This document shows positions 3,260 through 47,097 of a stretch of DNA of 63,510 nucleotides, in pieces. The notes under the pieces were generated by a model. It saw only the letters and a program-made list of their open reading frames with translations. It did not search any database and was not told where the DNA came from. Positions within the stretch are counted from its first letter, which is position 1; each line of letters starts with the position of its first letter. The position numbers were made by a program, and so were the translations under genes. The DNA is taken from contig JACQZV010000098.1 in the NCBI GenBank assembly GCA_016213695.1, positions 1 to 63,510 on the forward strand, written 5' to 3'. The stretch comes from Acidobacteriota bacterium. Lineage in GTDB: Bacteria; Acidobacteriota; Vicinamibacteria; Vicinamibacterales; UBA2999.

Positions 3260-5347
3260 ATGTCCACTGTAGCGAGAACCGACGCCAGCGAGATTGCCGT
3301 TCACTGGAAGGAGGAGGAGTACATCCAGCCGTCCGCCAGGTTCATCGGGCAGGCGAACCTGACCGATCCGGGCGTGGTCGAGCGCTTCACGGAAGAGAAG
3401 TTTCCCGAGTGTTTCCGTGAGTACGCCGACCTGCTGACGTGGGACGAGTACTGGCACACGACGCTCGATACGAGCCGTCCGCCGTTCTGGAAGTGGTTCG
3501 TCGGGGGCAGGCTGAACGCCTCCTACAACTGTGTGGACCGGCACCTGGCGGCGCACAAGAACAAGGCCGCGCTCATCTTCGTCCCGGAAGCCGAGACCGA
3601 GCCCGCCCACGCCCTCACCTACCAGGAGCTCTACACGCGCGTGAACGAGGTGGCGGCGGTGCTGCGTGACTTCTGCGGGCTCACGGCCGGCGACCGCGTC
3701 ACCATTCACATGCCGATGATCCTCGAGCTGCCGATCACGATGCTCGCCTGCGCGCGGCTCGGCATCATCCACTCGGTGGTCTTCGGCGGGTTCAGCGGCG
3801 AAGCGGCCGGTCTGCGCGCGGCCGACTCGGACAGCCGCGTGATGATCTACGCGGACGCGTACTACCGCAACGGCAAGCTGATCGATCACAAGGCGAATGC
3901 CGACATCGCCGTGAGAACCGCTGAAGGCGAAGGCCAGCGGATCGAGAAGGTACTCGTGTGGCGGAGGCACCCGGGCCAGGACCTGACCAACGCCGCCATG
4001 GTGCCCGGCCGTGACTACTACATGGATGACCTCCTCAAGGGATACAGACGCGTGAAGGTCGCGCCCGTCTCCGTCGAGTCCGAGCACCCGCTGTTCCTGA
4101 TGTACACGAGCGGGTCGACCGGGAAGCCGAAGGGCTGCCAGCACCGGACGGGCGGCTACCTCGCCTACGTCACCGGTACGGCGAAGTACTACCAGGACCT
4201 TCATCCCGAGGACGTCTACTGGTGCATGGCCGACATCGGCTGGATCACCGGCCACTCCTACATCGTCTACGGTCCGCTCGCGCTGGGCGCGACGAGCGTG
4301 ATCTTCGAAGGCGTGCCGAATTATCCCGATGCCGGACGGCCGTGGCGCATCGCCGAGCAGCTCGACGTGAACATCTTCCACACGTCGCCGACCGCCATCC
4401 GCATGCTCCGCAAGGCCGGACCCGACGAGCCGGCCAAGTACGCCTACCGCTTCAAGCACATGACGACGGTTGGCGAACCGATCGAGCCGGAAGCCTGGCG
4501 GTGGTACCACGAAGTGGTCGGCAAGGGCGAGGCGGTCATCGTTGACACCTGGTGGCAGACGGAGACGGGCGGGTTCCTCATCACCACCAAGCCGGCGCTC
4601 GACCCGATGAAGGCGGGCAGCGCGGGCCCTCCCGCACTCGGCATTTTCCCGGTCATCTACGACGAGAACGGGAAGGAGATTCCAGGCGGATCGGGCAAGG
4701 CGGGGAACATCTGCATCCGGAACCCGTGGCCGAGCATCATGCAGACGATCTGGAAGGACGACGACCGGTTCGTGCGGCAGTACTACGCGAAGTACTGCAG
4801 GAACCCGAAGAGCACCGACTGGCGCGACTGGCCCTACTTCGCGGCCGACGGCGCCGTGCTCGCCCCCGACGGCTACTATCGCATCCTCGGCCGCGTCGAC
4901 GACGTGATCAACGTCGCGGGTCACCGAATCGGGACCAAGGAGGTCGAGTCGGCGTGCCTGACCGTGCCGCAGGTGGCGGAAGCGGCGGTGGTGCCGGTCG
5001 TGGACGAGATCCGCGGCCGCATGCCGACGATCTACGTGTCGCTCAAGCCGGGCGTCGCCGACCCCCAGAAGGTGTCGGAGCAGATCGTCGCGACCGTCGA
5101 GACGATTATCGGCAAGATCGCCCGGCCCAAGGGGGTCCATATCGTGCCCGACCTGCCGAAGACGCGGTCCGGCAAGATCATGCGGCGCATCCTCGCGGCC
5201 ATCTCGAACAGGATGGACACGGGCGACGTGACCACGCTGGCCAACCCCGAGATCGTCGAACAGATTCGCAAGCAGGTGCAGGGCGAGGGACCGGTGGAGA
5301 TGCAGGAAGGCCCCGAAGACGTGAAACACTTCGGCGAACAGGAGTAG
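3260..5347 (+). CDS. acs: Acetyl-CoA synthetase (acetate-CoA ligase)
   Basis: YTSGSTGKPKG, WCMADIGWITGHSYIVYGPL, DTWWQTETGG, LPKTRSGKIMRR; GGAGGA RBS. Confidence 0.93.
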   Translation: MSTVARTDASEIAVHWKEEEYIQPSARFIGQANLTDPGVVERFTEEKFPECFREYADLLTWDEYWHTTLDTSRPPFWKWFVGGRLNASYNCVDRHLAAHKNKAALIFVPEAETEPAHALTYQELYTRVNEVAAVLRDFCGLTAGDRVTIHMPMILELPITMLACARLGIIHSVVFGGFSGEAAGLRAADSDSRVMIYADAYYRNGKLIDHKANADIAVRTAEGEGQRIEKVLVWRRHPGQDLTNAAMVPGRDYYMDDLLKGYRRVKVAPVSVESEHPLFLMYTSGSTGKPKGCQHRTGGYLAYVTGTAKYYQDLHPEDVYWCMADIGWITGHSYIVYGPLALGATSVIFEGVPNYPDAGRPWRIAEQLDVNIFHTSPTAIRMLRKAGPDEPAKYAYRFKHMTTVGEPIEPEAWRWYHEVVGKGEAVIVDTWWQTETGGFLITTKPALDPMKAGSAGPPALGIFPVIYDENGKEIPGGSGKAGNICIRNPWPSIMQTIWKDDDRFVRQYYAKYCRNPKSTDWRDWPYFAADGAVLAPDGYYRILGRVDDVINVAGHRIGTKEVESACLTVPQVAEAAVVPVVDEIRGRMPTIYVSLKPGVADPQKVSEQIVATVETIIGKIARPKGVHIVPDLPKTRSGKIMRRILAAISNRMDTGDVTTLANPEIVEQIRKQVQGEGPVEMQEGPEDVKHFGEQE

Positions 5348-36426: not shown

Positions 36427-39159
36427 TCAGGCGGCGCCGATCGCCTGGGCGCCTTCGGGCGGTTCGAGTCCGTAGCGCACGCGCTTCAGATAGAGGCCTT
36501 TGCGCGACACGCCGAGCAGGGCGGCCGTCTCCTCCATGCGTCCGCCGGTCGTGCGGATCGCATGCTGGATCATCGCGCGCTCGAGGTGCTGGACGGCTGC
36601 GGGCAGCGGCTGATCGATGCGGACGACCAGCTCGGTCGGGTCGAGCACGCGCTCGGACGCGGGGACGGTTCGGCGCGACGCGGCGATGTCGGCTGACAGA
36701 TGTTCGGGCATCAGGACGGCGTTGGTTTCGGCCAGCGCCGCCATGCGCCGCATTTCGTTGGCGAGCTGCCGCACGTTGCCCGGCCACCGGTAGAGCACCA
36801 GATATTCCATCGTCTCTTCGGCGAGGCGGAGCTGTCCCTTGGCGTATTCGTGCGCGTGTTTCTGCAGGTAGTGGTGGGCGAGCGGCGGGATTTCGACGCG
36901 GCGCTCGCGGAGCGGCGGCACGTGCAGGTGGACGATGTTGAGGCGGTAGAAGAGGTCCTCGCGGAGCCGTCCCTGCGCGACGAGGGCGTCGAGGTCGGCG
37001 TTGGTGGCGACGATGACGCGGACGTCGGCGCGCACCGGCTGCACGTCGCCGATTGGATGGACCTCGTTGGATTCGAGGAAGCGCAGCAGCTTCGGCTGCA
37101 CCTCGAGCGTGGTTTCGCCGATCTCGTCGAGGAAGAGCGTGCCGCCGGTGGCGGCGCGAATGACGCCGGGGAAGTGCTCGGTGGCGCCGGTGAACGACCC
37201 TTTGCGGTGGCCGAAGAGCTGCGAATCGAGCATGTCCTTCGGCACGCTGCTGCAGTTGAACGGCAAAAACGTGGCGGCCGCGCGGTTCGAATAGCCGTGG
37301 ATGGTGCGCGCCAGCACTTCCTTGCCGGTGCCGGTTTCGCCGGTGATGAGGACCGGGACCGTGGTGGGCGCGATGCGGCGCGCGGTGGCGAGGAGCGCCT
37401 GCATCTCCTCGGCGAGGAAAAGGGCGCCGGCCTGTTCTTCGATGGGCGGGGCGGGCCAGAGGGCGGCGCGGTTGCGTTCCTCCTCGCGGGCCTGCTCGAG
37501 CGCGAGGGCGTGGCGGCCCATGCGCAGCACGTCGGCCAGGAGGATGGCCTTGGCGGGATCGCCGGGGATCGTGCAGACGAGCGTGAGGTGCTTCTTGCGA
37601 TCGACGCCGAGCGGCAGGACGACGGTCGTGTCGGAGGCGTTGGGCGCGGCGGCGTTCTCACGTGTTTCGACAAGCTTCGCGTCGGGCGAGCAGGCGAGGG
37701 CGTCGATGGCGAACTGCATTTCTTCGCCGAGCAGGCGCGGGCGATGGGCGAGGTCGGTGAAGGCGGCGAGCGAATCGGCGACGCATTCGGCGGTGCCGGC
37801 GCCGTGCGGCGTCGGCGGGGGCGTCGTGTCGGGCTGGGAGTCTGATGGGTTGTCGTCCATTTCCAGGCGAACGGACACGATGCCCTGACCGGCCCATAGT
37901 CGAAGTGCCCGATCCCGAAGCTGCTGCTCCAACGGCGTTGCAAGGCCATGCAGTACAAGCGCCGATGCGTAGTAGTACTGTGCCTGAAGTTCCCTGATGC
38001 TTGTGACATGGAGTTCGTCGGCGCGGACGAGACACAGCGACGCATTATTGAACTCTTGGGATCGTGCCCCTGCGTGGGCAGCAGTCAAGTAAATGGATCC
38101 CTTGAGCGGCACGTCGCTCCCTTGCAAGTAACTTGCGGCTGCTGCATCCAGTGATCGGACGGCTTCGGCAAACTGTCCCTGTCTTATCAAGAGTTGTGCC
38201 GTTGTTATTGCTGCCCATCGCACCTGGTAAAACGAAGCAACCCGGTCGGTCTGCCCAATACCCTGTGAAACAAACCGAAGCGTGTTCTCACAATCCTCGA
38301 GTTCACCGAGAGCTAAGTGCACCCTTGCGAGACCGACAGCTACGCCCACCCTAGTGAACAGGGATGTCTTCTTGTCATTCAGCAGCAGGGAGAACGTTCT
38401 CTTTGCCCTATCGAATTCACCCGCTAGTAGTTGTATGTGGCCAATATTGCTGTCGGCGTTCACTTCGGTTTGGACGTATCCGATCCGGCCTGCGACGAGT
38501 TTCGCCGATCGAAGAAGTTGGGCTGCGTTGCTGAACTCGCAGCGCAATATCGATATACATCCACGATTCAGAAGCAGCAAAGACGCCAACCAGGCATTTG
38601 ACGAAGCCTGCAGCAACGATTCGGCGATACTGCAGTGCCGCTGTGCCTCATCCAAGCGTCCTGTCTGGCCTTCCAGTACGGATACACATATGTGGAGGTA
38701 AGCGGTGGCGGCAGGAACACCTGCTCGATTCACGGTTCGCCTCGCGTCGTTCAGGGCCGTCAGGACGTTACTGATAGGGCCGCTTTCAATTAGGAGTCTC
38801 AGCAGATGCAGGTATGCCCAGGCAGTCAGTTCTACTTCCCTCGACTCCTGTGCAAGGTAGACCGCAGACTGGGCGTGGCGGATCGCGGAAGCCAAATCTC
38901 CACGGCGCCAGTTAACAGTTGCGATTGCTGACTCAGCTTGAGATCTTACAGAAGGCGCTGATGGTGGATGGCAGTCTAGCTCCGCCAAGCGCGCCGCCTC
39001 TTCGAGCTCACTCGTTAGCGTTAAGGCAGTCGCCACAATCACACGATGTCGCGGCTCGAGGCCTCTCCGCTCCTCTTCTGTGCAGGCCGAAACGTGAAGT
39101 AGCTGCCGAAAGTCACCCTGTCTGAATAGTCTCGCTGCTGCTTCGTAACTGGCGCCCAT
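36427..39159 (-). CDS. Sigma54-dependent enhancer-binding protein with long N-terminal TPR-like sensor
   Basis: GETGTGKE, SQLFGHRKGSFTGA, LFLDEIGE, REDLFYRLN, WPGNVRQL, Fis-type HTH; ~430-aa helical N-terminus with no receiver domain; GGAGAGG RBS. Confidence 0.9.
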   Translation of the reverse strand: MGASYEAAARLFRQGDFRQLLHVSACTEEERRGLEPRHRVIVATALTLTSELEEAARLAELDCHPPSAPSVRSQAESAIATVNWRRGDLASAIRHAQSAVYLAQESREVELTAWAYLHLLRLLIESGPISNVLTALNDARRTVNRAGVPAATAYLHICVSVLEGQTGRLDEAQRHCSIAESLLQASSNAWLASLLLLNRGCISILRCEFSNAAQLLRSAKLVAGRIGYVQTEVNADSNIGHIQLLAGEFDRAKRTFSLLLNDKKTSLFTRVGVAVGLARVHLALGELEDCENTLRFVSQGIGQTDRVASFYQVRWAAITTAQLLIRQGQFAEAVRSLDAAAASYLQGSDVPLKGSIYLTAAHAGARSQEFNNASLCLVRADELHVTSIRELQAQYYYASALVLHGLATPLEQQLRDRALRLWAGQGIVSVRLEMDDNPSDSQPDTTPPPTPHGAGTAECVADSLAAFTDLAHRPRLLGEEMQFAIDALACSPDAKLVETRENAAAPNASDTTVVLPLGVDRKKHLTLVCTIPGDPAKAILLADVLRMGRHALALEQAREEERNRAALWPAPPIEEQAGALFLAEEMQALLATARRIAPTTVPVLITGETGTGKEVLARTIHGYSNRAAATFLPFNCSSVPKDMLDSQLFGHRKGSFTGATEHFPGVIRAATGGTLFLDEIGETTLEVQPKLLRFLESNEVHPIGDVQPVRADVRVIVATNADLDALVAQGRLREDLFYRLNIVHLHVPPLRERRVEIPPLAHHYLQKHAHEYAKGQLRLAEETMEYLVLYRWPGNVRQLANEMRRMAALAETNAVLMPEHLSADIAASRRTVPASERVLDPTELVVRIDQPLPAAVQHLERAMIQHAIRTTGGRMEETAALLGVSRKGLYLKRVRYGLEPPEGAQAIGAA

Positions 39160-39192
39160 CGCACCTCTCCGAGAACGTTACGAGATGGCCCG

Positions 39193-41127
39193 TCAGGCCT
39201 TCTGGTTTGGGAATGACACCACGTTTGAGGAAGTGTTTGCGACGAGGGATGAGATCCGACTGGCGAGGGCAGAGCCAACGTGCTCGAACGTGTAGCGATG
39301 GCCTTCGTTAAAGGCATCCTTCTTGGCGGAGTATGCCGTTAGCACTCCCATCAAGCTGTCGCCTTGGACGAGCGGCGTGCTGAGGGTACTGCGCAATGGA
39401 GGTGCAAAGAACCCGGCAATTTGTGCTAAGTCCAGTGATGCATCTGAGTTAACTGACGCGCGACGATTCGCCGCGGTCCAGCCAGTGATTCTCTCGCCCA
39501 GCTTAATGGATAGGTTGTCCAAGAGGTGCTGGTTGTCTCCGTAAGCACTCACGCAGGTCAATATGTCTGCCGTGCTGTTATAAACAAATACCGCATAAAT
39601 GGTCGCCGGAGTGAGTTGTCGCAGGTAATGACCGGCACTCTGCAGTGCCGTCGCGGTCGAAGTCGCTCTCGCGATGTCCCTTGAACAGGTGTCCAGGAGC
39701 GTAGTTTCGGATGCATTCGCACGAATGTGCCGCAACGGTGCGGCCGTGTCGTCAATGGACGTTGTGAGTCCAGCCGCATCGATGATGCTGCGAGCGTCCT
39801 GGCCAGCCTGAATGGCGACGGGCGCGATCTCTTCGTACGCGTTGATGAACGTATCAACCACGAAGGGGTCGTACATCGTACCTCGGCTCTGACGAATTAT
39901 CGCGAACGCCTCATCGGTGCCCAGACGTGGACGATACGGTCGGTCGGATGTGAGGGCGTCAAAACAATCGACCACCGAGAGAATCCGTGCGCCTAGCGGA
40001 ATATCGGTTCCGGATATTCCTGTGGGATACCCCGTCCCGTCCCAGCATTCGTGATGGTGACGAACGATCGGGACGACGGGGTAGGGAAATCTGACAGAGG
40101 AGAGGAGATCGGCGCCAATGTCGGCATGGCGCTTCATCTTCTCGAACTCGGCAGCGCTAAGCTTCCCTGGTTTGTTCAGGATGTGTTCAGGGATGGCGAG
40201 TTTGCCCATGTCGTGGAGTAAAGCGGCGGTCGTAATGGCCTGCAGTTGCCGTTCCTCCGTAACACCGAGACGTTTCGCGAGTTCGACTGCAAACACCTGA
40301 ACCCGTCGGATGTGGCCGTGAGTGATCTGGTCTTTGGCATCTACAGCCATAGCCAGGGCCTCGATTGTGGACATGTAGAGGTCATTGAGCTGGACCACGT
40401 GCCGGTTAGCATCCTCGACCCGACCCAATGTCGACCGAAAGGTGTAGTACGAAATCAGGAGCAGCGGGATGATGATACTTAGGACCGTAACGTCTATCTG
40501 ATCCGTGTAAGCAACAATCAGCATTGCGAGCGAGCCGCCGACAAAATAATTGATGCTCGTACCGGGGAAATTGTTCGCCCAGAGTCGCACAACGCGTTCT
40601 CGGCGTTCGACCGCTAATGCACCTGCAACGAGACCGGTGTTGATGATGAAATACAAGAAAATGAACGCGAATACCGGAGTGATTAGTTGAGAAATGTCGT
40701 GACGGCCGATCTGTCCCGGGTGGGCGCCCGACAAATAGAAGAACGCCTCGCTTGCTAACCGAATTGCAATAGCGGGTGCGGTTCCGTTGAAGAGCACCTT
40801 CAGGGGCGATCTTCTCATTCGGTCTAGCCAGAAGGAGATGACTAGGGCGTCTAGAACGACGATGATGGTCCCAGCTGCGGGACCAAAGAGTAATACCGCG
40901 GTGAAGATGAAAGTTTCCGATACGGAAAGCCGGGCCTGTAGCCCAGGGACTCTTACCGTGAACGAACCGGTGAACAGAGTCAGGGCCGCCAAGACAAGCC
41001 ACTCAAGTCCCGGCGGGTCTAGTGACACTTGCCACAGGGATTGCGCGACTACGAAGAGGCCGGTCGCAATTACGACCGTTAGATATTGATGTCGGCGGCG
41101 TTCACTCGCCTTGGGTGTAACAGACAC
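39193..41127 (-). CDS. Membrane-anchored HD-GYP phosphodiesterase with C-terminal GAF domain
   Basis: ~6 N-terminal TM segments; DAKDQITHGHIRRV, LLHDMGK, HHHECWDGTGYPTG, VDCFDALTSDRPYR; GAF-like tail. Confidence 0.9.
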   Translation of the reverse strand: MSVTPKASERRRHQYLTVVIATGLFVVAQSLWQVSLDPPGLEWLVLAALTLFTGSFTVRVPGLQARLSVSETFIFTAVLLFGPAAGTIIVVLDALVISFWLDRMRRSPLKVLFNGTAPAIAIRLASEAFFYLSGAHPGQIGRHDISQLITPVFAFIFLYFIINTGLVAGALAVERRERVVRLWANNFPGTSINYFVGGSLAMLIVAYTDQIDVTVLSIIIPLLLISYYTFRSTLGRVEDANRHVVQLNDLYMSTIEALAMAVDAKDQITHGHIRRVQVFAVELAKRLGVTEERQLQAITTAALLHDMGKLAIPEHILNKPGKLSAAEFEKMKRHADIGADLLSSVRFPYPVVPIVRHHHECWDGTGYPTGISGTDIPLGARILSVVDCFDALTSDRPYRPRLGTDEAFAIIRQSRGTMYDPFVVDTFINAYEEIAPVAIQAGQDARSIIDAAGLTTSIDDTAAPLRHIRANASETTLLDTCSRDIARATSTATALQSAGHYLRQLTPATIYAVFVYNSTADILTCVSAYGDNQHLLDNLSIKLGERITGWTAANRRASVNSDASLDLAQIAGFFAPPLRSTLSTPLVQGDSLMGVLTAYSAKKDAFNEGHRYTFEHVGSALASRISSLVANTSSNVVSFPNQKA

Positions 41128-41153
41128 ACTCGTTTGTACCGCACCTTATCGGC

Positions 41154-41183
41154 TTAGTCGCCCCAAACAATTATTCTTCGCAC
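41154..41183 (-). other. Isolated IIVWGD-stop unit: relic S8 tail or 9-aa micro-ORF (MRRIIVWGD)
   Basis: Minus strand reads GGGGG-AAATA-GTG CGA AGA ATA ATT GTT TGG GGC GAC TAA; out of frame with S8 (stops 49 nt apart). Confidence 0.4.
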
Positions 41184-41202
41184 TATTTCCCCCGAATCTG
41201 CG

Positions 41203-42873
41203 TTAGTCGCCCCAGACGGTGGTGTCGCCCCAGACGGTGGTGTCGCCCCAGACGGTGGTGTCGCCCCAGACGGCGGTGTCGCCCCAGACGGCGGTGTCGC
41301 CCCAGACGGTGGTGTCGCCCCAGACGGTGGTGTCGCCCCAGACGGCGGTGTCGCCCCAGACGGCGGTGTCGCCCCAGACGGTGGTGTCGCCCCAGAGTGT
41401 TATTGCGCCAAAGACAACTCCACCGCTCGAAACCGTCTCCCCCGCAATAACCGTCACCGGCGGCCCTTCGGAGTCAGCCGCACTCAGCGCCGCCACGACG
41501 TTCAAGCTGCCGGCCCCCGCACGCAGCAACCCAATCGGCATCGCCTCCGCGCTCGCCTGCAGAGTCGCCCGCACCTGGAGCGGATTGAGCGCGCGCGCGT
41601 CGAGCAGCAGCGCCGTCGCCCCCGAGACCACCGCGGCCGACATGCTCGTCCCCGACAACTGCAGCCGCTTGCCCTCGGCTGTATCGATGACGAGCTCCGG
41701 GTGCTCCCGCGCAAGCGTCGACCCCGGCGCCAGCAGCCCCACAACCTTGTTCCCCGGCGCCACCAGATCCGGCTTGATGAGGCCGTCAAACAGCGTCAGG
41801 CCACGCGAGCTGTACGTCGTGATCACGTCGTCAGACCGCTGCGCCGTCCCCTTCGTGTTGAGCGCGCCCACCGTGATCGCATAGGGCGAATTGCCCGGCA
41901 CCGTGATCCCGCCGAATACCTCGGTGCCGGCCGCATCCTTACCGTGGTTGCCGGCCGACGCCACCACGACGAGGCCCGCGCGATACGCGCGCTCCACCGC
42001 CTGGCACAACGGATCGTCGGCGCACCGCTGCAGCACCGGCCCGCCGAGCGACAGGTTGATCACCTTGATGCCGTAGCGATCGCGGTTCGCAATCGCCCAG
42101 TCGATCGCGTCAATCACGTCGGCCGCATAGCCGGCGCCGTTCGCGTCGAGCACCTTCAGGTTGATGAGACGCGCGCCCGGCGCGACACCGCGCGTCGGGT
42201 CCTTCGAGTTCGCCCCGGACGCCGCGATGATCCCTGCCACGTGCGTGCCGTGTCCGTTGTCGTCGCCGGCGTTCCCGCGCACCCCGGCGCCGGCGTCCGC
42301 GCAGTCGGTCTTCCCGACCTTCTGGCCCGATCGTTTGGACGCCGCCGTGAAGTCAACGCTCACGACAATGCGGCCGCGGAGCTGCGGCAGATCCGCAATG
42401 CCCGTGTCGACGACTGCCACGCCGATGCCGTCGCCGGTCACCCCGTCCGCGCCCGGCGCCCACCCGTCGGTCCACACCTGGTCGGCGCCAATCGCCACGG
42501 TGGTCACCGCCATCTGCGGCTGCACCCGGTAGTTGCTCGACAAGGCGCCGAGCCGGCCGTCGGCCGCCAGCGCGCTCAGCGCGCCGGCCGGCACCGCAAC
42601 CACCGCGCCGGTCTTCAGCCGCTTGCCGACGCGCAGGCCGTGCCGCGCCGCCAGCGTGTCGATCTGCGCCTGTGTCCCGGGGACGATGACGCAGGTCTCT
42701 TCAGTGGTGCCAGCTTGGAGCCGCTCGGTCAGGTCCTCGGAAAGGCGCGCACGCCGGCCCTGCGCCAACGCGTCGGTCCCGGAAAGCAGGAGTACCGCAC
42801 ACAGCAGGGCATGGAGTGTCCGGCTGCTGCCAGACACGACGAGTGACCAACGATTTCCGGGGCACGGGACCAA
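41203..42873 (-). CDS. Secreted S8 subtilase (AprX-like) with C-terminal (xxxWGD)11 repeat tail
   Basis: VAVVDTG, HGTHVAG, SAGN, SGTSMSAAVVSG; signal-peptide-like LLCAVLLLSGTDALAQ; start uncertain (42873 or GTG 42837). Confidence 0.92.
   Translation of the reverse strand: MVPCPGNRWSLVVSGSSRTLHALLCAVLLLSGTDALAQGRRARLSEDLTERLQAGTTEETCVIVPGTQAQIDTLAARHGLRVGKRLKTGAVVAVPAGALSALAADGRLGALSSNYRVQPQMAVTTVAIGADQVWTDGWAPGADGVTGDGIGVAVVDTGIADLPQLRGRIVVSVDFTAASKRSGQKVGKTDCADAGAGVRGNAGDDNGHGTHVAGIIAASGANSKDPTRGVAPGARLINLKVLDANGAGYAADVIDAIDWAIANRDRYGIKVINLSLGGPVLQRCADDPLCQAVERAYRAGLVVVASAGNHGKDAAGTEVFGGITVPGNSPYAITVGALNTKGTAQRSDDVITTYSSRGLTLFDGLIKPDLVAPGNKVVGLLAPGSTLAREHPELVIDTAEGKRLQLSGTSMSAAVVSGATALLLDARALNPLQVRATLQASAEAMPIGLLRAGAGSLNVVAALSAADSEGPPVTVIAGETVSSGGVVFGAITLWGDTTVWGDTAVWGDTAVWGDTTVWGDTTVWGDTAVWGDTAVWGDTTVWGDTTVWGDTTVWGD
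41206..41403. repeat. In-frame 18-bp tandem repeat x11 encoding T(T/A)VWGD
   Basis: gtcgccccagacgg(t/c)ggt x10 plus one divergent ITLWGD unit. Confidence 0.97.
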
Positions 42874-42891: not shown

Positions 42892-43152
42892 TCAGGTTCG
42901 GGCGGGTCTCAGGACAAAGGTGGCCGCCGACGCCGACGTTGAAAAGGGCTGGGGCTGGAACCCCAGGCCGTAGAGCGATTCGACGAGCACGCGCTGCGAC
43001 CCGCCCATCGTGCGGATCGTCAGCAGACGCCCGTCGCGTATCCGGTAGTAGACCGTGCGGCGTGAGACCTTCAGGAGCTGCGCGGCCTGATCGATCGACA
43101 CGCTTCGTCCGAGACGCAGTTCAGAAGCGGACGCTGATAATTCGGTATGCAC
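42892..43152 (-). CDS. Small excisionase-like (HTH_17/MerR-type) DNA-binding protein
   Basis: VSIDQAAQLLKVSRRTVYYRIRDGRLLTIR. Confidence 0.8.
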   Translation of the reverse strand: MHTELSASASELRLGRSVSIDQAAQLLKVSRRTVYYRIRDGRLLTIRTMGGSQRVLVESLYGLGFQPQPFSTSASAATFVLRPART

Positions 43153-43175: not shown

Positions 43176-43190
43176 GCAGGGTTGGTGCCA
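43176..43190 (-). promoter_or_regulatory. Sigma54 -24/-12 promoter for the HTH-S8-HD-GYP-EBP operon
   Basis: Minus strand TGGCAC-CAACC-CTGC (GG-N10-GC), ~24 nt before the HTH start. Confidence 0.65.
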
Positions 43191-43368: not shown

Positions 43369-45144
43369 ATGGATTCACCGAGCGGCCAAGAAATTGACCA
43401 GGGTGGCAGAAACCTGCGCGTAAAACGCTCCGTCATCGCGGCTGTCGCCGGCGCCGCGCTCCTGCTCGCTTTGGCGCTGCTGTTCCTGCGGCGTCCCGGT
43501 GGTCCAGCGCCACCAGTGAGTCCGGCGCGCGGCGGCCAGATTGTTGCGTCGATCCGCGCCGAGCCGCGGTCGTTCAACCGCCTCGTCGCCCGCGACCAGT
43601 CCACCGACCTCCTGACGTTCCTGACCCAGGGCCGGCTCGTACGGATCAACCGCGCCTCCTTCGATCTGGAGCCCTGGCTGGCCGAGCGGTGGGAGTCGAG
43701 CGCCGACGGACGCGTGCACACGCTGCACCTGCGGCCCGGCGTGACCTGGTCCGACGGGATGCCGTTCACCTCAGCCGACGTGCTGTTCTCGGTGCAGGCG
43801 GTCTTCGACCGGCGCGCCCAGAGCGTGCTGGCCAGCAGCCTCGCCGCCGGCGGGCAGCCGATTCGCGCCGCGGCGCCCGACGCGCAGACGGTCGTCATCA
43901 CCTTTCCTGTGCCGTCCGGCCCCGGGCTGCGCCTGCTCGACCAGTTGCCAATCCTGCCGAAGCACAAGCTGCAGGGAGCGCTCGCGGCCGGGACGTTTGC
44001 CTCCGCGTGGAATGCCGCGACGCCACCGGCCGAGATCGTCGGCACGGGCCCCTTCGTCGTGCGCGAGTACCAGCCGGGACAGCGCGTCGTGCTCGACAGG
44101 AACCCGCGCTACTGGCGGCGCGCCCCCGACGGCGCCGCGCTCCCGTACCTCGATCGCATCGTCCTCGAGATCGTGCCCGAGCAGAACGCGGAGCTGCTGC
44201 GGCTGCAGTCGGGGGGCACCGACCTCTCGTCGAGCGAGCTGCGTCCGGAGGATTACGCTCCGGTCAAACAGGCGGAGGAGCAGGGACGGCTGCGGCTCGT
44301 CGAGCTCGGCGTCGGTCCGGATGCCGACGCGTTCTGGTTCTGCCTCAAGCCCGAGGTCAAGGGCAAAGACCCCCGTTTCGTGTTCGTGCAGCGGCCGGAG
44401 TTTCGGGCGGCCATCTCGCATGCGGTCGACCGCGAGGCATTCGCCCACACCGTGTTCCTGGGCGCCGCGGTGCCCGTGTGGGGTCCCGTCACGCCCGGCA
44501 ACACGCAGTGGTTCTGGCCCGACGTGCCCCGTTATGCGTACGACGAGGCGCGCGCGCGCGATCTGCTCGCGGGCCTTGGCCTCGAGGATCGCGATCACAA
44601 CGGGGTGGTTGAGGACGCGCGCGGTACCGAAGCACGCTTCACCGTCATCACGCAGCGGGGCATCGGCTGGTACGAGCGGGGCACCGCCGTGCTCCGCGAG
44701 AGCCTGGCGCGCGTCGGCATCGCGATCGATGTCGCGCCGCTCGAATTCGGCGCGATGATCCAGCGGATGCTCGCGTGCGACTACGACGCCATGTACTACC
44801 GGCCGGTCTTCACGGATCTCGACCCGGCCGGCAACCTCGACTTCTGGCTCACCTCCGGCTCCGCGCATGTGTGGAACCTGGAGCAGCGCGTGCCCGCCAC
44901 CGAGTGGGAGCGGCGGATCGACACGCTGATGCTCGAGCAGGCGGCGACAATCGATCCCGAGCGGCGGCACGAGCAGTTCAACCTCGTGCAGCGCATCGCC
45001 GGCGAGAACCTGCCGGTGCTCTACTTCGCGGCGCCGCGGCTCTACTACGGGCACAGCGTCCGCCTGCGCGGCGTCGTCCCGTCCGTCCTGCGGCCGCCGG
45101 TGTTGTGGAACGCCGACAGTCTCAGCGTGGCGCCCGGTGAGTAG
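43369..45144 (+). CDS. ABC transporter substrate-binding protein, family 5 (peptide/nickel)
   Basis: LEPWLAERW, LRPGVTWSDGMPFTSADVLFS, GTGPF, RAAISHAVDR; N-terminal membrane anchor; start uncertain. Confidence 0.88.
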   Translation: MDSPSGQEIDQGGRNLRVKRSVIAAVAGAALLLALALLFLRRPGGPAPPVSPARGGQIVASIRAEPRSFNRLVARDQSTDLLTFLTQGRLVRINRASFDLEPWLAERWESSADGRVHTLHLRPGVTWSDGMPFTSADVLFSVQAVFDRRAQSVLASSLAAGGQPIRAAAPDAQTVVITFPVPSGPGLRLLDQLPILPKHKLQGALAAGTFASAWNAATPPAEIVGTGPFVVREYQPGQRVVLDRNPRYWRRAPDGAALPYLDRIVLEIVPEQNAELLRLQSGGTDLSSSELRPEDYAPVKQAEEQGRLRLVELGVGPDADAFWFCLKPEVKGKDPRFVFVQRPEFRAAISHAVDREAFAHTVFLGAAVPVWGPVTPGNTQWFWPDVPRYAYDEARARDLLAGLGLEDRDHNGVVEDARGTEARFTVITQRGIGWYERGTAVLRESLARVGIAIDVAPLEFGAMIQRMLACDYDAMYYRPVFTDLDPAGNLDFWLTSGSAHVWNLEQRVPATEWERRIDTLMLEQAATIDPERRHEQFNLVQRIAGENLPVLYFAAPRLYYGHSVRLRGVVPSVLRPPVLWNADSLSVAPGE

Positions 45145-46126
45145 CTTCCTGGCCCGGCGCCTGTTGTTTGCGCTCGCGCTCGTGGTCGTCGTGTCGTCGT
45201 CGGCGCTGCTGCTGGCGCGGCTGGCGCCCGGAGACGTCACCGCCGAGCTCGGCCCGTTTGCCGGCGCCGCCGAGATTGCCGGCACGCGCGCGCGGTTCGA
45301 TCTTGACCGCAACCCCGCGTCGCAATGGGTCGTCTGGATGGCGCGGGCCGCGCGCTTCGAGTTCGGCGACTCGTTTCTCTACAACCGGCCCGTGCGCGGG
45401 CTCGTGCTGCGCGCCGCCGCCAATACGGCGGTGCTGGCGCTCGCCGCGCTGGCGCTGGCGACGCTTGTCGGGATACCGCTCGGCATCGTGGCGGGCAGCC
45501 GGCAGGGAACGGGCGCCGCCGTGATCCGCGCGGCGTCGCTCGTCTGCCTCTCGGTGCCGCCGCTCCTCACCTCGCTCCTGCTCGTGTTCGTCGCCGCCAC
45601 CACTCGCTGGTTTCCTCTCGGCGGGATGACGTCGGTGGCCGCCGTCGGCCCGAGCGGGCCGGCCTGGCTGGCCGACGTCGCCGTCCACCTGCCGCTGCCG
45701 GTGCTCGCGCTCGCGCTGCCGATTGCCGCCACGTTCGAGCGGCTGCAGGCACAGGCGATCACCGACGCGCTGCGCCAGCCGTTTGCGCTCGCCGCGGTGG
45801 CGCGGGGCCTGTCGGCCCGCGACGTCGTGCTCCGCCACGCGTGGCGCGTGTCTCTCCGTCCTCTCTGCGGCGTGTACGGGCTGGCGGTCGGCGCGCTGCT
45901 GTCGGGGTCGTTCGTCGTGGAGTTCGTGACCGCGTGGCCGGGCCTCGGGCGCCTCACCTACGAGGCGCTGCGCGCGCGCGATATCTATCTGGTGGCCGGG
46001 TGCGCGGCGATGGGCGGCGTGTTTCTCGCGCTCGGCAGCCTCGTCGGCGACCTGTTGCTCCTCGCGGCCGATCCCCGCCTGCGTGAGGCGGCCCGGGCCC
46101 GTTCCGGCGAAAGGCAGACCGCATGA
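45137..46126 (+). CDS. Peptide ABC permease (OppB/DppB-like)
   Basis: LARLAPGD, FEFGDSF, AVARGLS...HAWR (EAA-like loop), TAWPGLGRL. Confidence 0.9.
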   Translation: MSSFLARRLLFALALVVVVSSSALLLARLAPGDVTAELGPFAGAAEIAGTRARFDLDRNPASQWVVWMARAARFEFGDSFLYNRPVRGLVLRAAANTAVLALAALALATLVGIPLGIVAGSRQGTGAAVIRAASLVCLSVPPLLTSLLLVFVAATTRWFPLGGMTSVAAVGPSGPAWLADVAVHLPLPVLALALPIAATFERLQAQAITDALRQPFALAAVARGLSARDVVLRHAWRVSLRPLCGVYGLAVGALLSGSFVVEFVTAWPGLGRLTYEALRARDIYLVAGCAAMGGVFLALGSLVGDLLLLAADPRLREAARARSGERQTA

Positions 46127-47097
46127 GGCGCGCCGGGCAGGGGCTGCTCGCGCTCGTCGTGCTCGGCGCGGCCGCCGCGCCCTGGCTCGCGCCCAATCCG
46201 CCCGATCGGACCTTCCCGGCCGCACTCTATGCGCCGCCCACGCCTGTCAGGCTGCGGCACGCCGGCCTGCGGGCGCCGTTCATCTATCCGCAGCGCGTCG
46301 TCAGCGCGCTTGAGCGGCGATTCGAAGAGGACGCGACGCGTCCCGTGCCGCTGCAGTGGTTCCGCGACGGCCGGCTGGTCACCGTGCCCGACGCCGGCGG
46401 CGGTCCGCTGCTGCTGCTCGGCGCCGACAGCCTCGGCCGCGACACGTTCTCGCGCCTGCTGTACGGCGCGCGCACCTCGCTCGTGCTCGCCGCCGCGTCC
46501 ACGCTGCTCGCGCTGCTTGTCGGAGCCCTCATCGGCGGCATCGCCGGGTATGCCGGCGGCGTCGCCGACGAAACGCTGTCGCGGCTGACGGACTTCGTGC
46601 TCGTGCTGCCGGCCATGTACGTAGCGCTCGCGCTGCGCGCCGTCATGCCGCTCGTGCTGCCGCCGGCCACCGTGTTCGCGCTGCTGACGGCCATTTTTGC
46701 GCTACTGGGGTGGCCGGTCGTCGCCCGCGGCGTGCGCGCCATCGTCGCCTCCGAGCGCGAGCGCGAATACGTCGTCGCCGGCCGGGCGCTCGGCGCCACG
46801 CCGTCGCGCCTGCTCGCGCGGTACCTCCTGCCCGCGGCCGGCGGGTACCTGGCGGTGCAGGCCACGCTGCTCCTGCCCGCATTCATCCTGGCCGAGGCCA
46901 CGCTCTCGTACGTCGGCCTCGGCTTTCCGGCGACGGTGCCCACCTGGGGCACGATGCTGCAGGAGGCGGCCAACGTGTCCCTGCTCGGCGGGGCGCCGTG
47001 GGTGCTCGCTCCGGCCGCAGCGATCTTCGTCGTCGTGCTTGCGGTGAACCTGGTGGTGCAGGGAACCGGCCGGGCGCCTGTACAATTGGAGCCATGA
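46123..47097 (+). CDS. Peptide ABC permease (OppC/DppC-like)
   Basis: LLGADSLGRDTFSRLLYGARTSL, EYVVAGRALGA, EATLSYVGLG, WGTML. Confidence 0.9.
   Translation: MRRAGQGLLALVVLGAAAAPWLAPNPPDRTFPAALYAPPTPVRLRHAGLRAPFIYPQRVVSALERRFEEDATRPVPLQWFRDGRLVTVPDAGGGPLLLLGADSLGRDTFSRLLYGARTSLVLAAASTLLALLVGALIGGIAGYAGGVADETLSRLTDFVLVLPAMYVALALRAVMPLVLPPATVFALLTAIFALLGWPVVARGVRAIVASEREREYVVAGRALGATPSRLLARYLLPAAGGYLAVQATLLLPAFILAEATLSYVGLGFPATVPTWGTMLQEAANVSLLGGAPWVLAPAAAIFVVVLAVNLVVQGTGRAPVQLEP

What the first reader, a model, noticed from the sequence alone, without database searches (positions are those of the whole stretch)
41154..41202. A twelfth, out-of-frame IIVWGD-stop unit just after the S8 stop: relic tail or 9-aa micropeptide
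Seen: downstream of the S8 TAA the minus strand reads ...GAT TCG GGG GAA ATA GTG CGA AGA ATA ATT GTT TGG GGC GAC TAA (DSGEIVRRIIVWGD*). It uses AT-rich codons, unlike the GC-rich array, and sits 49 nt (one frame shift) from the S8 stop. A GGGGG element 5 nt before GTG could initiate MRRIIVWGD. The ORF track misses it. Inference: either the remnant 3' end of a donor strain's S8 gene left by recombination in the WGD array, or a stand-alone gene for a second peptide variant (IIVWGD) cognate to the adjacent low-GC receptor genes.
Basis: partly seen in the sequence, partly recalled or inferred. Interest (0 to 1): 0.82.

Follow-up and report, generated by a model that had tools for sequence, protein, structure and literature searches.

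The report
Conserved nine-codon gene after protease
The "twelfth unit" is not a leftover but a real nine-codon gene (Met-RRIIVWGD), conserved in dozens of soil and groundwater Acidobacteria between a repeat-tailed protease gene and a membrane signalling enzyme gene; it encodes a free copy of the protease's tail motif, and no paper in the library searched describes it.

Summary
On the minus strand, 49 nt after the S8 stop, a second GTYTGGGGCGACTAA closes a GTG-started 9-codon ORF (41183-41154, M/V-RRIIVWGD*) with GGGGG 5 nt upstream. The "relic" reading fails. The same SD + start + 7-10 codon ORF (consensus M-x-x-[LIV]-I-[IV]-W-G-[DE]) lies at the same junction in 62 of 80 related HD-GYP loci and in further S8-anchored loci, all in Vicinamibacterales. 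Across 74 non-identical copies: ATG/GTG/TTG starts, all three stops, period-3 conservation, core pN/pS 0.22, SD in 53/54. The full signature occurs once in this 3.75-Mb genome. It belongs to a conserved sigma-54 module: HTH, S8 with xxxW[GSAT][DEN] tail, micro-ORF, MASE9-HD-GYP-GAF, TPR-sigma54 activator, facing a peptide ABC importer. It marks the 5' edge of a low-GC, hypervariable block present in every locus that has it. Peptide type follows the HD-GYP block rather than the flanks, and its rare variants (WAD, WTD) match the tail unit through different codons. Function is inferred: most likely a trans-acting micropeptide partner of the module's sensors that also loads ribosomes onto the SD-poor HD-GYP gene. 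A purely cis-acting leader peptide is the main rival. No expression data exist.

The parts
41154..41183 (-). Micro-ORF: GTG CGA AGA ATA ATT GTT TGG GGC GAC TAA = (f)Met-RRIIVWGD, 9 codons plus stop
   Evidence: Family conservation.
41189..41193 (-). Shine-Dalgarno-like GGGGG, 5 nt upstream of the GTG
   Evidence: An SD-like tetramer precedes 53/54 family members, and there is a G-rich peak 6-11 nt before the start.
41147..41152 (-). CCGATA motif 1 nt after the stop; function unexplained
   Evidence: Within 14 nt of the stop in 24/62 instances against about 0.1 expected. Offset +12 to +14 from TGG in both 9- and 8-codon types.
41128..41153 (-). 26-nt spacer between the micro-ORF stop and the HD-GYP GTG start, with a predicted small hairpin
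   Evidence: Family spacers are more structured than controls (mean z -1.07 vs 0.00).
41203..42873 (-). S8 peptidase (556 aa): signal-like N-terminus, propeptide-like domain, catalytic domain, tail of 11 xxxWGD units (array 41206-41403)
   Evidence: AF2: the tail (residues 486-556) is disordered, pLDDT about 30.
39193..41127 (-). Membrane MASE9 + HD-GYP (HD_5) + GAF protein, 644 aa; its start lacks a good SD
36427..39159 (-). Sigma-54 activator (910 aa): TPR solenoid + small alpha/beta domain + AAA+ + HTH_8
37900..41200 (.). Low-GC (about 0.55 vs 0.70), hypervariable block running from the micro-ORF to the sensor/AAA+ junction of the activator
42892..43152 (-). Small HTH_17 protein, first gene of the operon
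   Evidence: Conserved in 36 loci.
43176..43190 (-). Sigma-54 promoter TGGCAC-N5-CTGC upstream of the HTH/S8 operon
   Evidence: TGG[CT]A[CT]-N5-NTGC is present at the same place in 43/73 loci.
43369..47097 (+). Divergent peptide-type ABC importer: SBP_bac_5 protein and two permeases
   Evidence: The SBP is conserved in 49 loci.

Best explanation
The unit is a genuine, independently translated nine-codon gene, (f)Met-RRIIVWGD. It belongs to a micro-ORF family (M-x-x-[LIV]-I-[IV]-W-G-[DE], with WD, WED, WTD, WAD, WGS and 15-aa variants) that is a fixed part of a sigma-54-dependent module in Vicinamibacterales: HTH, S8 peptidase with an xxxW[GSAT][DEN] repeat tail, micro-ORF, MASE9-HD-GYP-GAF, TPR-sigma54 activator, opposite a peptide ABC importer. 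SHOWN: conserved position, SD, start, length and stop; purifying selection at the amino-acid level; location at the 5' edge of a low-GC hypervariable block; co-inheritance with the HD-GYP block; co-variation with the S8 tail unit. INFERRED: the product is a free, cytoplasmically made analogue of the tail unit that acts in trans on the module's own sensors. My first candidate target is the comparatively conserved MASE9 membrane domain of the HD-GYP protein encoded about 26 nt downstream, since MASE9 is proposed to bind ligands within the membrane. The variable tail-derived peptides would then address the hypervariable TPR and GAF sensors. Translation of the micro-ORF also delivers ribosomes through a structured spacer to the SD-poor HD-GYP start. 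My odds: real conserved coding ORF about 0.9; trans-acting peptide function about 0.45.
For: Conservation: S8-anchored loci, pattern scan 18/401 vs 0 for the reversed control, and 62/80 HD-GYP-anchored loci. Coding signature in 74 copies: ATG 66/GTG 7/TTG 1; TAG 46/TAA 18/TGA 10; 8-9 aa in 72; period-3 information; pN/pS 0.22 for codons 4-9 with pS 0.59; six synonymous versions of MKPLIIWGE; SD 53/54; unique in the genome. Module. Peptide-level link to the tail: WAD micropeptides occur only with TIVWAD tails and WTD only with xVWT[DN] tails, through different codons. Peptide type follows the HD-GYP block, not the flanks. Tandem double copies in L109, L111, L118 and a conserved 15-aa variant in L054/L084 fit a product better than a stop-dependent leader. 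MASE9 and HD-GYP are dense in invariant columns, whereas the GAF and TPR parts are not. MASE9 ligand binding within the membrane is proposed in bioRxiv 10.1101/2021.11.05.467447. The S8 tail is predicted disordered, so accessible to proteolysis. The activator sensor is a TPR solenoid whose best target-normalised match is Rap bound to its pentapeptide.
Against: There is no expression, ribosome-profiling or peptide evidence: only DNA runs exist for this organism. A 9-mer has no export signal and cannot span a membrane, and no exporter is evident. The peptide is nearly invariant while the supposed receptors (TPR, GAF) are hypervariable, the opposite of classical pherotype systems. Its placement 10-60 nt before an SD-poor gene, the structured spacer, the conservation of only the last six residues and the preferred rare NTA codon also fit a cis-acting leader. 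The ORF has decayed in a few lineages (L049, L052/L019). Detection required hydrophobic codons and TGG, which deflates pN for codons 5-7.
Confidence: 0.5

Rival explanations
1. A purely cis-acting regulatory leader peptide. The ribosome translating or terminating on ..IIWG(D/E)-stop pauses and remodels the spacer hairpin. This sets translation, or transcript continuation, of the SD-poor HD-GYP and activator genes. The peptide has no role once released.
For: A strong SD on the micro-ORF (53/54) against 9/54 on HD-GYP; a spacer of about 35 nt that is more structured than controls. Only the C-terminal six residues are constrained; codons 2-3 are near neutral. An excess of rare NTA codons at position 4. 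Extreme conservation inside a hypervariable block, as expected if the partner is the ribosome. Nine-codon leaders are a known size class (CmlA and Cat leaders; my own knowledge).
Against: This does not explain the resemblance to, and co-variation with, the S8 tail unit through different codons. It also does not explain the tandem double copies or the 15-aa variants in which WGE is internal. No conserved alternative pairing was found, and hairpin sequences are not conserved. All three stop codons are used. SD usage is low genome-wide (about 29% vs 13% random), so an SD-less HD-GYP start is not unusual.
Confidence: 0.27
2. A secreted quorum-sensing-type pheromone. The 9-mer, or its C-terminal hexapeptide, is exported together with tail-derived hexapeptides, re-imported by the adjacent SBP_5 ABC system and sensed by the TPR domain of the sigma-54 activator. 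The activator then switches on the operon's own sigma-54 promoter, by the same logic as RRNPP systems.
For: Conserved neighbours: peptide-type SBP (49 loci), a sigma-54 promoter ahead of the operon that encodes its own activator (43/73), and a TPR sensor with a Rap-like fold match. Tandemly repeated pheromone units cut by extracellular proteases are known in Rap-Phr systems (PMC11343458).
Against: No signal peptide and no exporter gene in the module. The organism has a diderm-type envelope (my own knowledge of Acidobacteriota). The peptide is conserved while the TPR sensor is only 15-32% identical between loci. Some loci keep the micro-ORF and HD-GYP without an adjacent activator (L051, L053, L090, L042).
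Confidence: 0.15
3. A conserved nucleotide element (a protein-binding DNA site or an RNA motif spanning CTAATCATCTGGGGCGA..CCGATA) that merely looks like an ORF.
For: CCGATA is kept at a fixed distance from TGG in both 8- and 9-codon types, and it survives where the ORF has decayed. A is preferred at the third position of codon 4.
Against: Period-3 variation; conserved SD, start and length; free choice among three stops; synonymous saturation with amino-acid conservation. No Rfam match. CCGATA is absent from 60% of instances.
Confidence: 0.05
4. A relic: the 3' end of another strain's S8 gene, left behind by recombination in the WGD array, with no function.
For: An exact 12-nt identity, TGGGGCGACTAA, with the true S8 end. 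Block exchange bounded near the tail does occur in this family. In one relative (L025) an out-of-frame IWG-like copy lies between the S8 stop and the micro-ORF.
Against: Own SD and start; the same ORF in more than 60 genomes with divergent nucleotides; purifying selection. Position -3 from Trp is always hydrophobic in the micro-ORF but polar (T/S/D/A) in tail units, a systematic difference.
Confidence: 0.03

Closest known systems
Rgg/SHP and ComR/ComS (XIP) short-hydrophobic-peptide systems and other RRNPP(A) quorum sensors of Bacillota
   Same: A very small ORF encoding a hydrophobic, often Trp-containing peptide whose active part is the C-terminus. It lies next to a TPR-type cytoplasmic sensor and is linked to an oligopeptide ABC importer, with autoregulatory logic. 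The activator's sensor half has a Rap-like TPR fold (TMt 0.72).
   Different: Those precursors are 17-60 aa, and they are exported and processed. Their receptors are HTH-TPR or phosphatase-TPR proteins, not sigma-54 AAA+ activators. No sequence homology was found. Here there are only 9 codons and no leader, the phylum is different, and the peptide is conserved while the sensor is hypervariable.
Tandemly duplicated Phr pheromone propeptides matured by extracellular subtilisin-type proteases (PMC11343458)
   Same: Several near-identical short peptide units in tandem, and a subtilase as the maturation enzyme.
   Different: Here the units form the C-terminal tail of the protease itself, and a separate one-unit gene follows it. 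Processing has not been shown.
Short regulatory leader peptides of translation attenuation (ErmCL, CatA86L/CmlAL, MsrDL, TnaC)
   Same: A 6-24 codon ORF with a strong SD just upstream of a gene whose start is SD-poor and preceded by a hairpin, with constraint on the last residues.
   Different: No conserved alternative structures. The peptide resembles and co-varies with a neighbouring protein's repeat unit. Tandem copies and internal-motif variants exist.
Pherotype cassettes of agr (agrB-D-C) and comQXP
   Same: A hypervariable block with sharp boundaries inside genes: the end of the processing enzyme, the peptide gene and the sensor half of the receptor. It is exchanged between otherwise similar backgrounds.
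   Different: In agr and com the peptide is the most variable element. Here it is the most conserved island of the block. The block is also persistently low in GC in all lineages.
Small proteins that bind and tune membrane sensors or transporters (MgrB-PhoQ, AcrZ-AcrB, KdpF)
   Same: A tiny hydrophobic product encoded beside, and co-expressed with, a membrane signalling protein.
   Different: Those are single-pass membrane proteins of 26 aa or more. A 9-mer cannot span the bilayer.

Membership tests
RRNPP(A) peptide quorum-sensing systems | Receptor is a homologue of Rap/Rgg/NprR/PlcR/PrgX/AimR (TPR-type peptide-binding domain of that superfamily) | tested here: not met
   Pfam gives only TPR_MalT/TPR_19 plus the sigma-54 AAA+ and HTH_8 domains. 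No PDB sequence match. The fold match to Rap (4gyo, TMt 0.72) is generic TPR similarity, alongside MalT, LGN, OGT and APC.
RRNPP(A) peptide quorum-sensing systems | Propeptide carries an export signal and is processed to a mature 5-10 aa pheromone | tested here: not met
   The ORF is 9 codons (7-10 in the family, rarely 15) with no room for a leader.
RRNPP(A) peptide quorum-sensing systems | Re-import by an oligopeptide permease | tested here: inconclusive
   An SBP_bac_5 ABC importer is a conserved divergent neighbour. Its substrate is unknown.
Translation-attenuation leader peptides | Short ORF with its own RBS immediately upstream of the regulated gene | tested here: met
   SD 53/54; median gap to the HD-GYP start about 35 nt.
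Translation-attenuation leader peptides | Mutually exclusive RNA structures that mask or unmask the downstream start | tested here: inconclusive
   The spacer is more structured than controls (z -1.07 vs 0.00), but hairpins are not conserved in sequence and no alternative pairing was found.
Translation-attenuation leader peptides | Ligand-dependent ribosome stalling on the leader | not testable with these tools
   Needs toeprinting or ribosome profiling.
Gene relic / pseudogene fragment | No independent translation signals and no conservation as an ORF | tested here: not met
   Own SD and start, conserved length, pN/pS 0.22.
Known RNA families (Rfam 15) | Match to a curated covariance model | tested here: not met
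   Only chance-level hits (E > 4), none at the site.
Pherotype-type specificity cassette (agr/comQXP-like) | Hypervariable block with intragenic boundaries, exchanged among related backgrounds | tested here: met
   Mosaic identity profiles in five pairs. L093 groups with other WTD loci by HD-GYP but with L075 (WAD) by flanks.
Pherotype-type specificity cassette (agr/comQXP-like) | The peptide itself diversifies with its receptor | tested here: inconclusive
   Peptide subtypes (WGD/E, WD, WED, WTD, WAD) follow HD-GYP clades. Yet identical peptides span highly diverged sensor domains (L104/L105/L110/L119).

The most novel reading that the evidence does not exclude
Vicinamibacterales carry a peptide-signalling system of a kind not yet described. 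A secreted subtilase bears its own array of signal hexapeptides as a disordered tail. A directly translated 9-residue peptide, among the shortest functional bacterial gene products proposed so far, acts as the intracellular or intramembrane counterpart of those units on a MASE9-HD-GYP c-di-GMP phosphodiesterase. Alternatively, as a nascent chain, it makes the ribosome sense imported tail peptides. The whole specificity block (tail, micropeptide, HD-GYP, TPR sensor of a sigma-54 activator) is kept low in GC and exchanged like a pherotype cassette.
Probability: 0.2. Interest if true: 0.92.

Novelty: new variant of a known kind. Interest (0 to 1): 0.78.

Why it matters
Genes of nine codons are invisible to annotation pipelines, and very few are known to be functional. 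This one shows clear purifying selection across an order of abundant but poorly studied soil and groundwater Acidobacteria. It sits at the centre of a conserved module linking a secreted protease, a peptide importer, c-di-GMP turnover and sigma-54 transcription. If the peptide is a ligand, it would reveal peptide-based signalling in a phylum where none is known, with an unusual design in which the signal units are carried by the protease itself. If it is a leader, it would be a new arrest or coupling peptide. Either way it gives a sharply defined, cheap experimental handle: one start codon and one Trp. The persistent low-GC hypervariable block is also an unexplained evolutionary phenomenon.

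Tried and rejected
1. Chance match: rejected. The 15-mer occurs only twice and the full signature once in the genome.

2. Assembly artefact: rejected for the micro-ORF. The array copy number remains uncertain.

3. Relic of a donor S8 end: rejected (see rivals).

4. C-terminal extension of S8 by frameshift: the micro-ORF frame is open for 72 codons through the array in this window, but most relatives have an in-frame stop just upstream, so this is not conserved.

5. N-terminal extension of HD-GYP by readthrough: the gaps of 10-62 nt have no consistent phase.

6. CCGATA as the 5' arm of a conserved hairpin: it pairs downstream in a few loci only, and is usually unpaired in MFE folds.

7. CCGATA as a conserved stop for another frame: followed by A/G in most instances but by C/T in about nine.

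8. CCGATA as an operator shared with the promoter: TATCGG occurs in 10/35 promoter regions vs about 1.8 expected, but six of those are one clade's 5' UTR, so this is not independent.

9. Sigma-70 or sigma-54 promoter embedded in the ORF: compared with the consensus by eye only; no convincing match.

10. Recent horizontal import as the cause of low GC: rejected. The dip is family-wide.

11. Known RNA family: none.

12. Expression evidence: only DNA runs of a groundwater metagenome are available.

13. Literature on IIWGD/VWGD, on Vicinamibacter peptide signalling, or on TPR-sigma54 peptide sensors: nothing relevant.

14. Presence outside the order: two pattern hits in other Acidobacteriota were chance, with no start, SD or module.

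15. Earlier scan notes on look-alike loci: none.

Full report
**Observation**

The sequence is exactly as described. On the minus strand the S8 peptidase ORF (41203-42873, 556 aa; Peptidase_S8) ends in ITLWGD followed by ten T[TA]VWGD units and TAA (41205-41203). An 18-nt tandem array spans 41206-41396. Downstream comes cgcagattcGGGGGaaata, then GTG CGA AGA ATA ATT GTT TGG GGC GAC TAA (41183-41154).

The two stops are 49 nt apart, so the second unit is in another frame. GTNTGGGGNGAYTAA occurs only at these two places in the 3.75-Mb genome. A full signature search (SD, start, 1-3 codons, three hydrophobic codons, TGG, 1-2 codons, stop) finds this site and nothing else on either strand.

An independent assembly (Logan contigs) of the same sequencing run reproduces 41000-41235 without a difference. 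The contigs break inside the array, so the number of units (11) is not secure. The micro-ORF, the offset and the S8 stop are secure.

**It is conserved, so it is not a relic**

Three independent routes lead to the same small ORF.

- From the S8 side. Relatives in the same family and order have S8 genes with tails of xxxWGD/WSD/WGN units. Just after the stop they have an SD and a short ORF: MRTLIIWGE, MNRLIIWGD (twice), MQYVIIWGD, MRQLIIWGE, MTPIIVWS.
- From a DNA pattern. TGGGGNGANTRR-N0-4-CCGATA hits 18 of 401 genomes of the order and 0 for the reversed control. Eleven hits are this ORF after an S8 tail. The other seven are an unrelated coding KWGEWY motif or chance matches.
- From the downstream gene. 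Of 80 loci encoding relatives of the HD-GYP protein (almost all Vicinamibacterales/Acidobacteriota MAGs), 62 carry the ORF directly upstream. That is 59 found by script plus L071, L054 and L084 found by eye. Two have decayed copies (L049, L052). Sixteen have none. Nine of those sixteen lack an upstream S8 gene. Seven belong to a distant subfamily whose S8 has irregular NH[LV]VWG[DS] repeats.

A scan of the phylum for IIWG[DE]-stop found true cases only within the order.

**It carries the signature of translation**

Across 74 non-identical copies:

| Feature | Result |
|---|---|
| Start codon | ATG 66, GTG 7, TTG 1 |
| Stop codon | TAG 46, TAA 18, TGA 10 |
| Length | 9 aa in 52, 8 aa in 20 |
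| SD | G-rich peak 6-11 nt before the start |
| Information per position | Period 3: about 2 bits at codon positions 1-2 of the core, 0.1-0.99 at position 3 |

- The residue three positions before Trp was not constrained by my search, yet its codon has T at the second position in 74/74.
- Pairwise pN/pS is 0.22 for codons 4-9, with synonymous sites near saturation (pS 0.59). It is 0.8 for codons 2-3.
- Six different nucleotide versions all encode MKPLIIWGE.
- An SD-like tetramer precedes 53 of 54 micro-ORFs, against a crude genome baseline of 29% (13% in random windows).
- Caveat: the search demanded hydrophobic codons at two positions and TGG, which deflates pN there.

Variants are M-x-x-L-I-[LI]-W-E-D, M-x-x-I-I-[VL]-W-D, M-R-[IV]-I-[IV]-W-T-D, V-R-R-L-I-V-W-A-D, M-S-K-V-I-V-W-G-S and a 15-aa form MxxRRLI[IV]WGEGP[AS]L shared by L054 and L084. 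Three loci (L109, L111, L118) have two tandem copies, each with its own SD.

**The module**

The order is:

- a small HTH_17 protein;
- the S8 peptidase;
- the micro-ORF;
- a 644-aa MASE9 + HD-GYP + GAF membrane protein;
- a 910-aa activator with a MalT-like TPR region, a sigma-54 AAA+ domain and HTH_8.

The same architecture was confirmed by Pfam in four relatives. The divergent SBP_bac_5 ABC importer is conserved in 49 loci and the HTH in 36. A sigma-54 promoter (TGGCAC-N5-[CG]TGC; 43190-43176 in the window) precedes the operon in 43 of 73 loci. So the operon is sigma-54-dependent and encodes its own activator.

Structure predictions:

- S8 has a confident catalytic domain and a propeptide-like domain. 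The whole tail (residues 486-556) is disordered, with pLDDT about 30.
- The activator's first 560 residues form a confident (pLDDT 91.5) TPR solenoid plus a small alpha/beta domain.
- By target-normalised TM-score the best fold matches are Rap bound to its pentapeptide (4gyo, 0.72) and MalT domain III (1hz4, 0.67), among many generic TPR hits.
- There is no sequence relative in the PDB.

**The low-GC block is family-wide and hypervariable**

In the window, GC falls from about 0.70 to about 0.55 between roughly 41,200 and 37,900. That stretch runs from the micro-ORF through HD-GYP and the sensor half of the activator.

The same dip occurs in essentially every locus that has the micro-ORF (median S8-minus-HD-GYP difference 0.126; GC3 about 0.6 vs 0.88). 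It is absent from HD-GYP homologues without it (GC 0.65-0.70). This refutes a recent import into this genome.

Between close relatives the same block is hypervariable with sharp edges:

| Segment (L075 vs L093) | nt identity |
|---|---|
| SBP, HTH and S8 core | 80-87% |
| S8 tail to the sensor/AAA+ junction | 40-55% |
| HD-GYP catalytic core within that block | about 75% |
| AAA+ domain onward | 80-91% |

Four more pairs show the same pattern. Sensor halves are only 15-32% identical to ours, with L050 (50%) the one exception, against 50-60% for the AAA+ halves.

Peptide type follows the block, not the flanks. The WTD loci L093, L076, L079 and L066 are each other's nearest by HD-GYP, but L093's nearest by flanks is L075, which has WAD. 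Yet identical peptides (MKPLIIWGE) span strongly diverged sensor domains. The micro-ORF is therefore a conserved island at the edge of a variable block.

**Link to the tail unit**

Tail units are [TSDA]-Φ-Φ-W-[GSAT]-[DENS]. The micropeptide core is Φ-I-Φ-W-x-[DE], and it is always hydrophobic where the tail unit is polar.

Rare states co-occur. WAD micropeptides (L075, L114) are found only with TIVWAD tails. WTD micropeptides (L076, L079, L091) are found only with xVWT[DN] tails. Codons differ at synonymous sites between the two (for example L114: micro TTA ATT GTT TGG GCT GAC, tail ACC ATC GTC TGG GCC GAC). Recent gene conversion therefore does not explain the match. The WTD and WAD loci may each be one clade, so this amounts to about two co-transitions, not five.

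**Downstream features**

- The gap to the HD-GYP start is 10-62 nt in most loci (26 nt here).
- HD-GYP starts have an SD-like tetramer in only 9 of 54.
- The spacer is more structured than length-matched controls (mean z -1.07 vs 0.00; 19 vs 4 with z below -1.5).
- Hairpin sequences are not conserved.
- CCGATA lies within 14 nt of the stop in 24 of 62 instances (about 0.1 expected). It sits at +12 to +14 from TGG in both 9- and 8-codon types, and it survives in the decayed copies. I could not explain it.

**Mechanism**

Shown: a conserved, selected, SD-driven 9-codon ORF that is integral to the module and co-inherited with the HD-GYP block.

Inferred:

- The product is a free analogue of the tail unit acting in trans on the module's sensors. 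I favour the MASE9 domain of the adjacent HD-GYP protein as the target, for three reasons. It is the conserved part of the block (dense invariant columns). It is encoded immediately downstream. It is proposed to bind ligands within the membrane (bioRxiv 10.1101/2021.11.05.467447).
- The variable tail peptides may address the hypervariable TPR and GAF sensors after import.
- Translation of the micro-ORF probably also feeds ribosomes to HD-GYP.

The main rival is a purely cis-acting leader peptide. That fits the position, the SD asymmetry, the hairpin, the C-terminal-only constraint and the extreme conservation. It does not fit the tail co-variation, the tandem copies or the 15-aa variants. A secreted pheromone is less likely, because there is no export signal or exporter and the peptide is conserved while the TPR is hypervariable.

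**Comparison with the known, and novelty**

By logic the locus resembles Rgg/SHP-ComRS and other RRNPP systems, tandem Phr propeptides (PMC11343458), short attenuation leaders, and agr/comQXP pherotype cassettes. By homology it belongs to none of them.

No paper in the searched library mentions the motif or the module. There is no Rfam family at the site. I class it as a new variant of a known kind (small peptide genes within signalling modules), with a real chance of being something new in kind.

**Limits**

- All relatives are MAGs, and arrays are assembly-fragile: several relatives show frameshifted or masked tails.
- No transcript, ribosome or peptide data exist for any carrier.
- Function is entirely inferred.

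Noticed in passing
window 41147-41152 (minus strand) and the equivalent site in L048, L050, L051, L053, L055-L058, L067-L069, L074, L086, L088, L090, L106, L121: CCGATA lies 0-5 nt after the micro-ORF stop, always 12-14 nt after the TGG codon. It occurs in 24/62 instances against about 0.1 expected, and it is kept even where the ORF has decayed (L049, L052). It is mostly unpaired in predicted folds. Function unknown.
   Followed up: partly
window ~37900-41200; L048-L127: A persistent low-GC (GC3 about 0.6 vs 0.88), hypervariable block runs from the micro-ORF to the sensor/AAA+ junction of the sigma-54 activator in every locus with the micro-ORF. It is absent from HD-GYP homologues without it. 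Mosaic pairs (L075/L093 and others) show sharp intragenic boundaries. The cause of the stable low GC is unexplained.
   Followed up: partly
window 43384-43399 (minus strand GGTCAA-TTTC-TTGGCC); same place in L050, L052, L053, L078, L086, L111: A conserved inverted repeat GGCCAA-N4-6-TTGGCC lies about 200 nt upstream of the sigma-54 promoter, near the start of the divergent SBP gene. It is a candidate binding site for the activator.
   Followed up: no
L109 3704-3819; L111 3831-3953; L118 3838-3953: Two tandem micro-ORFs (MKLIIWGE/MKLIIWGE, MKLIIWGE/MRLIIWGE), each with its own SD, 60-70 nt apart.
   Followed up: partly
L054 and L084, just upstream of HD-GYP: A 15-codon variant, MKLRRLIIWGEGPAL / MTIRRLIVWGEGPSL, in which the WGE motif is internal. 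It is conserved between two loci.
   Followed up: no
L100, L103, L112, L115, L117, L123, L125: A distant S8/HD-GYP subfamily. The S8 tail has irregularly spaced NH[LV]VWG[DS] repeats (15-20 aa apart) and ends without the motif. There is no micro-ORF, and HD-GYP has normal GC in five of the seven (0.61 in L100 and L112). This may be the ancestral state of the tail.
   Followed up: no
window 41206-41403; L005, L008, L051, L093, L111, L118: The repeat arrays are assembly-fragile. Logan contigs break inside the window's array, and several relatives show frameshifted or N-masked tails, so unit counts and tail frames in MAGs should not be trusted.
   Followed up: partly
window 41184-41400 (minus strand, micro-ORF frame): In this genome the micro-ORF's reading frame stays open for 72 codons upstream through the array (..PSGATPPSGAT..NADSGEIVRRIIVWGD). 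A +1 shift in the array would therefore yield an S8 ending in IIVWGD. Most relatives have a stop just upstream, so this is not conserved.
   Followed up: yes
L121 ~3650-3890; L072 ~3650-3900: Transposase-like sequence (YNxxRPHxxL; HFEGR..WHHH) lies directly upstream of HD-GYP in place of S8. L121 still keeps the micro-ORF (MKALIIWSN) and CCGATA.
   Followed up: no
L082, L104, L105, L110, L119 (and similarly L111), just downstream of the sigma-54 promoter: TATCGG, the reverse complement of CCGATA, sits in the 5' UTR directly before the SD of the first operon gene (TATCGGCGGAGTTCGCTATGG in the first five). These six of the ten promoter-region hits are one clade.
   Followed up: partly
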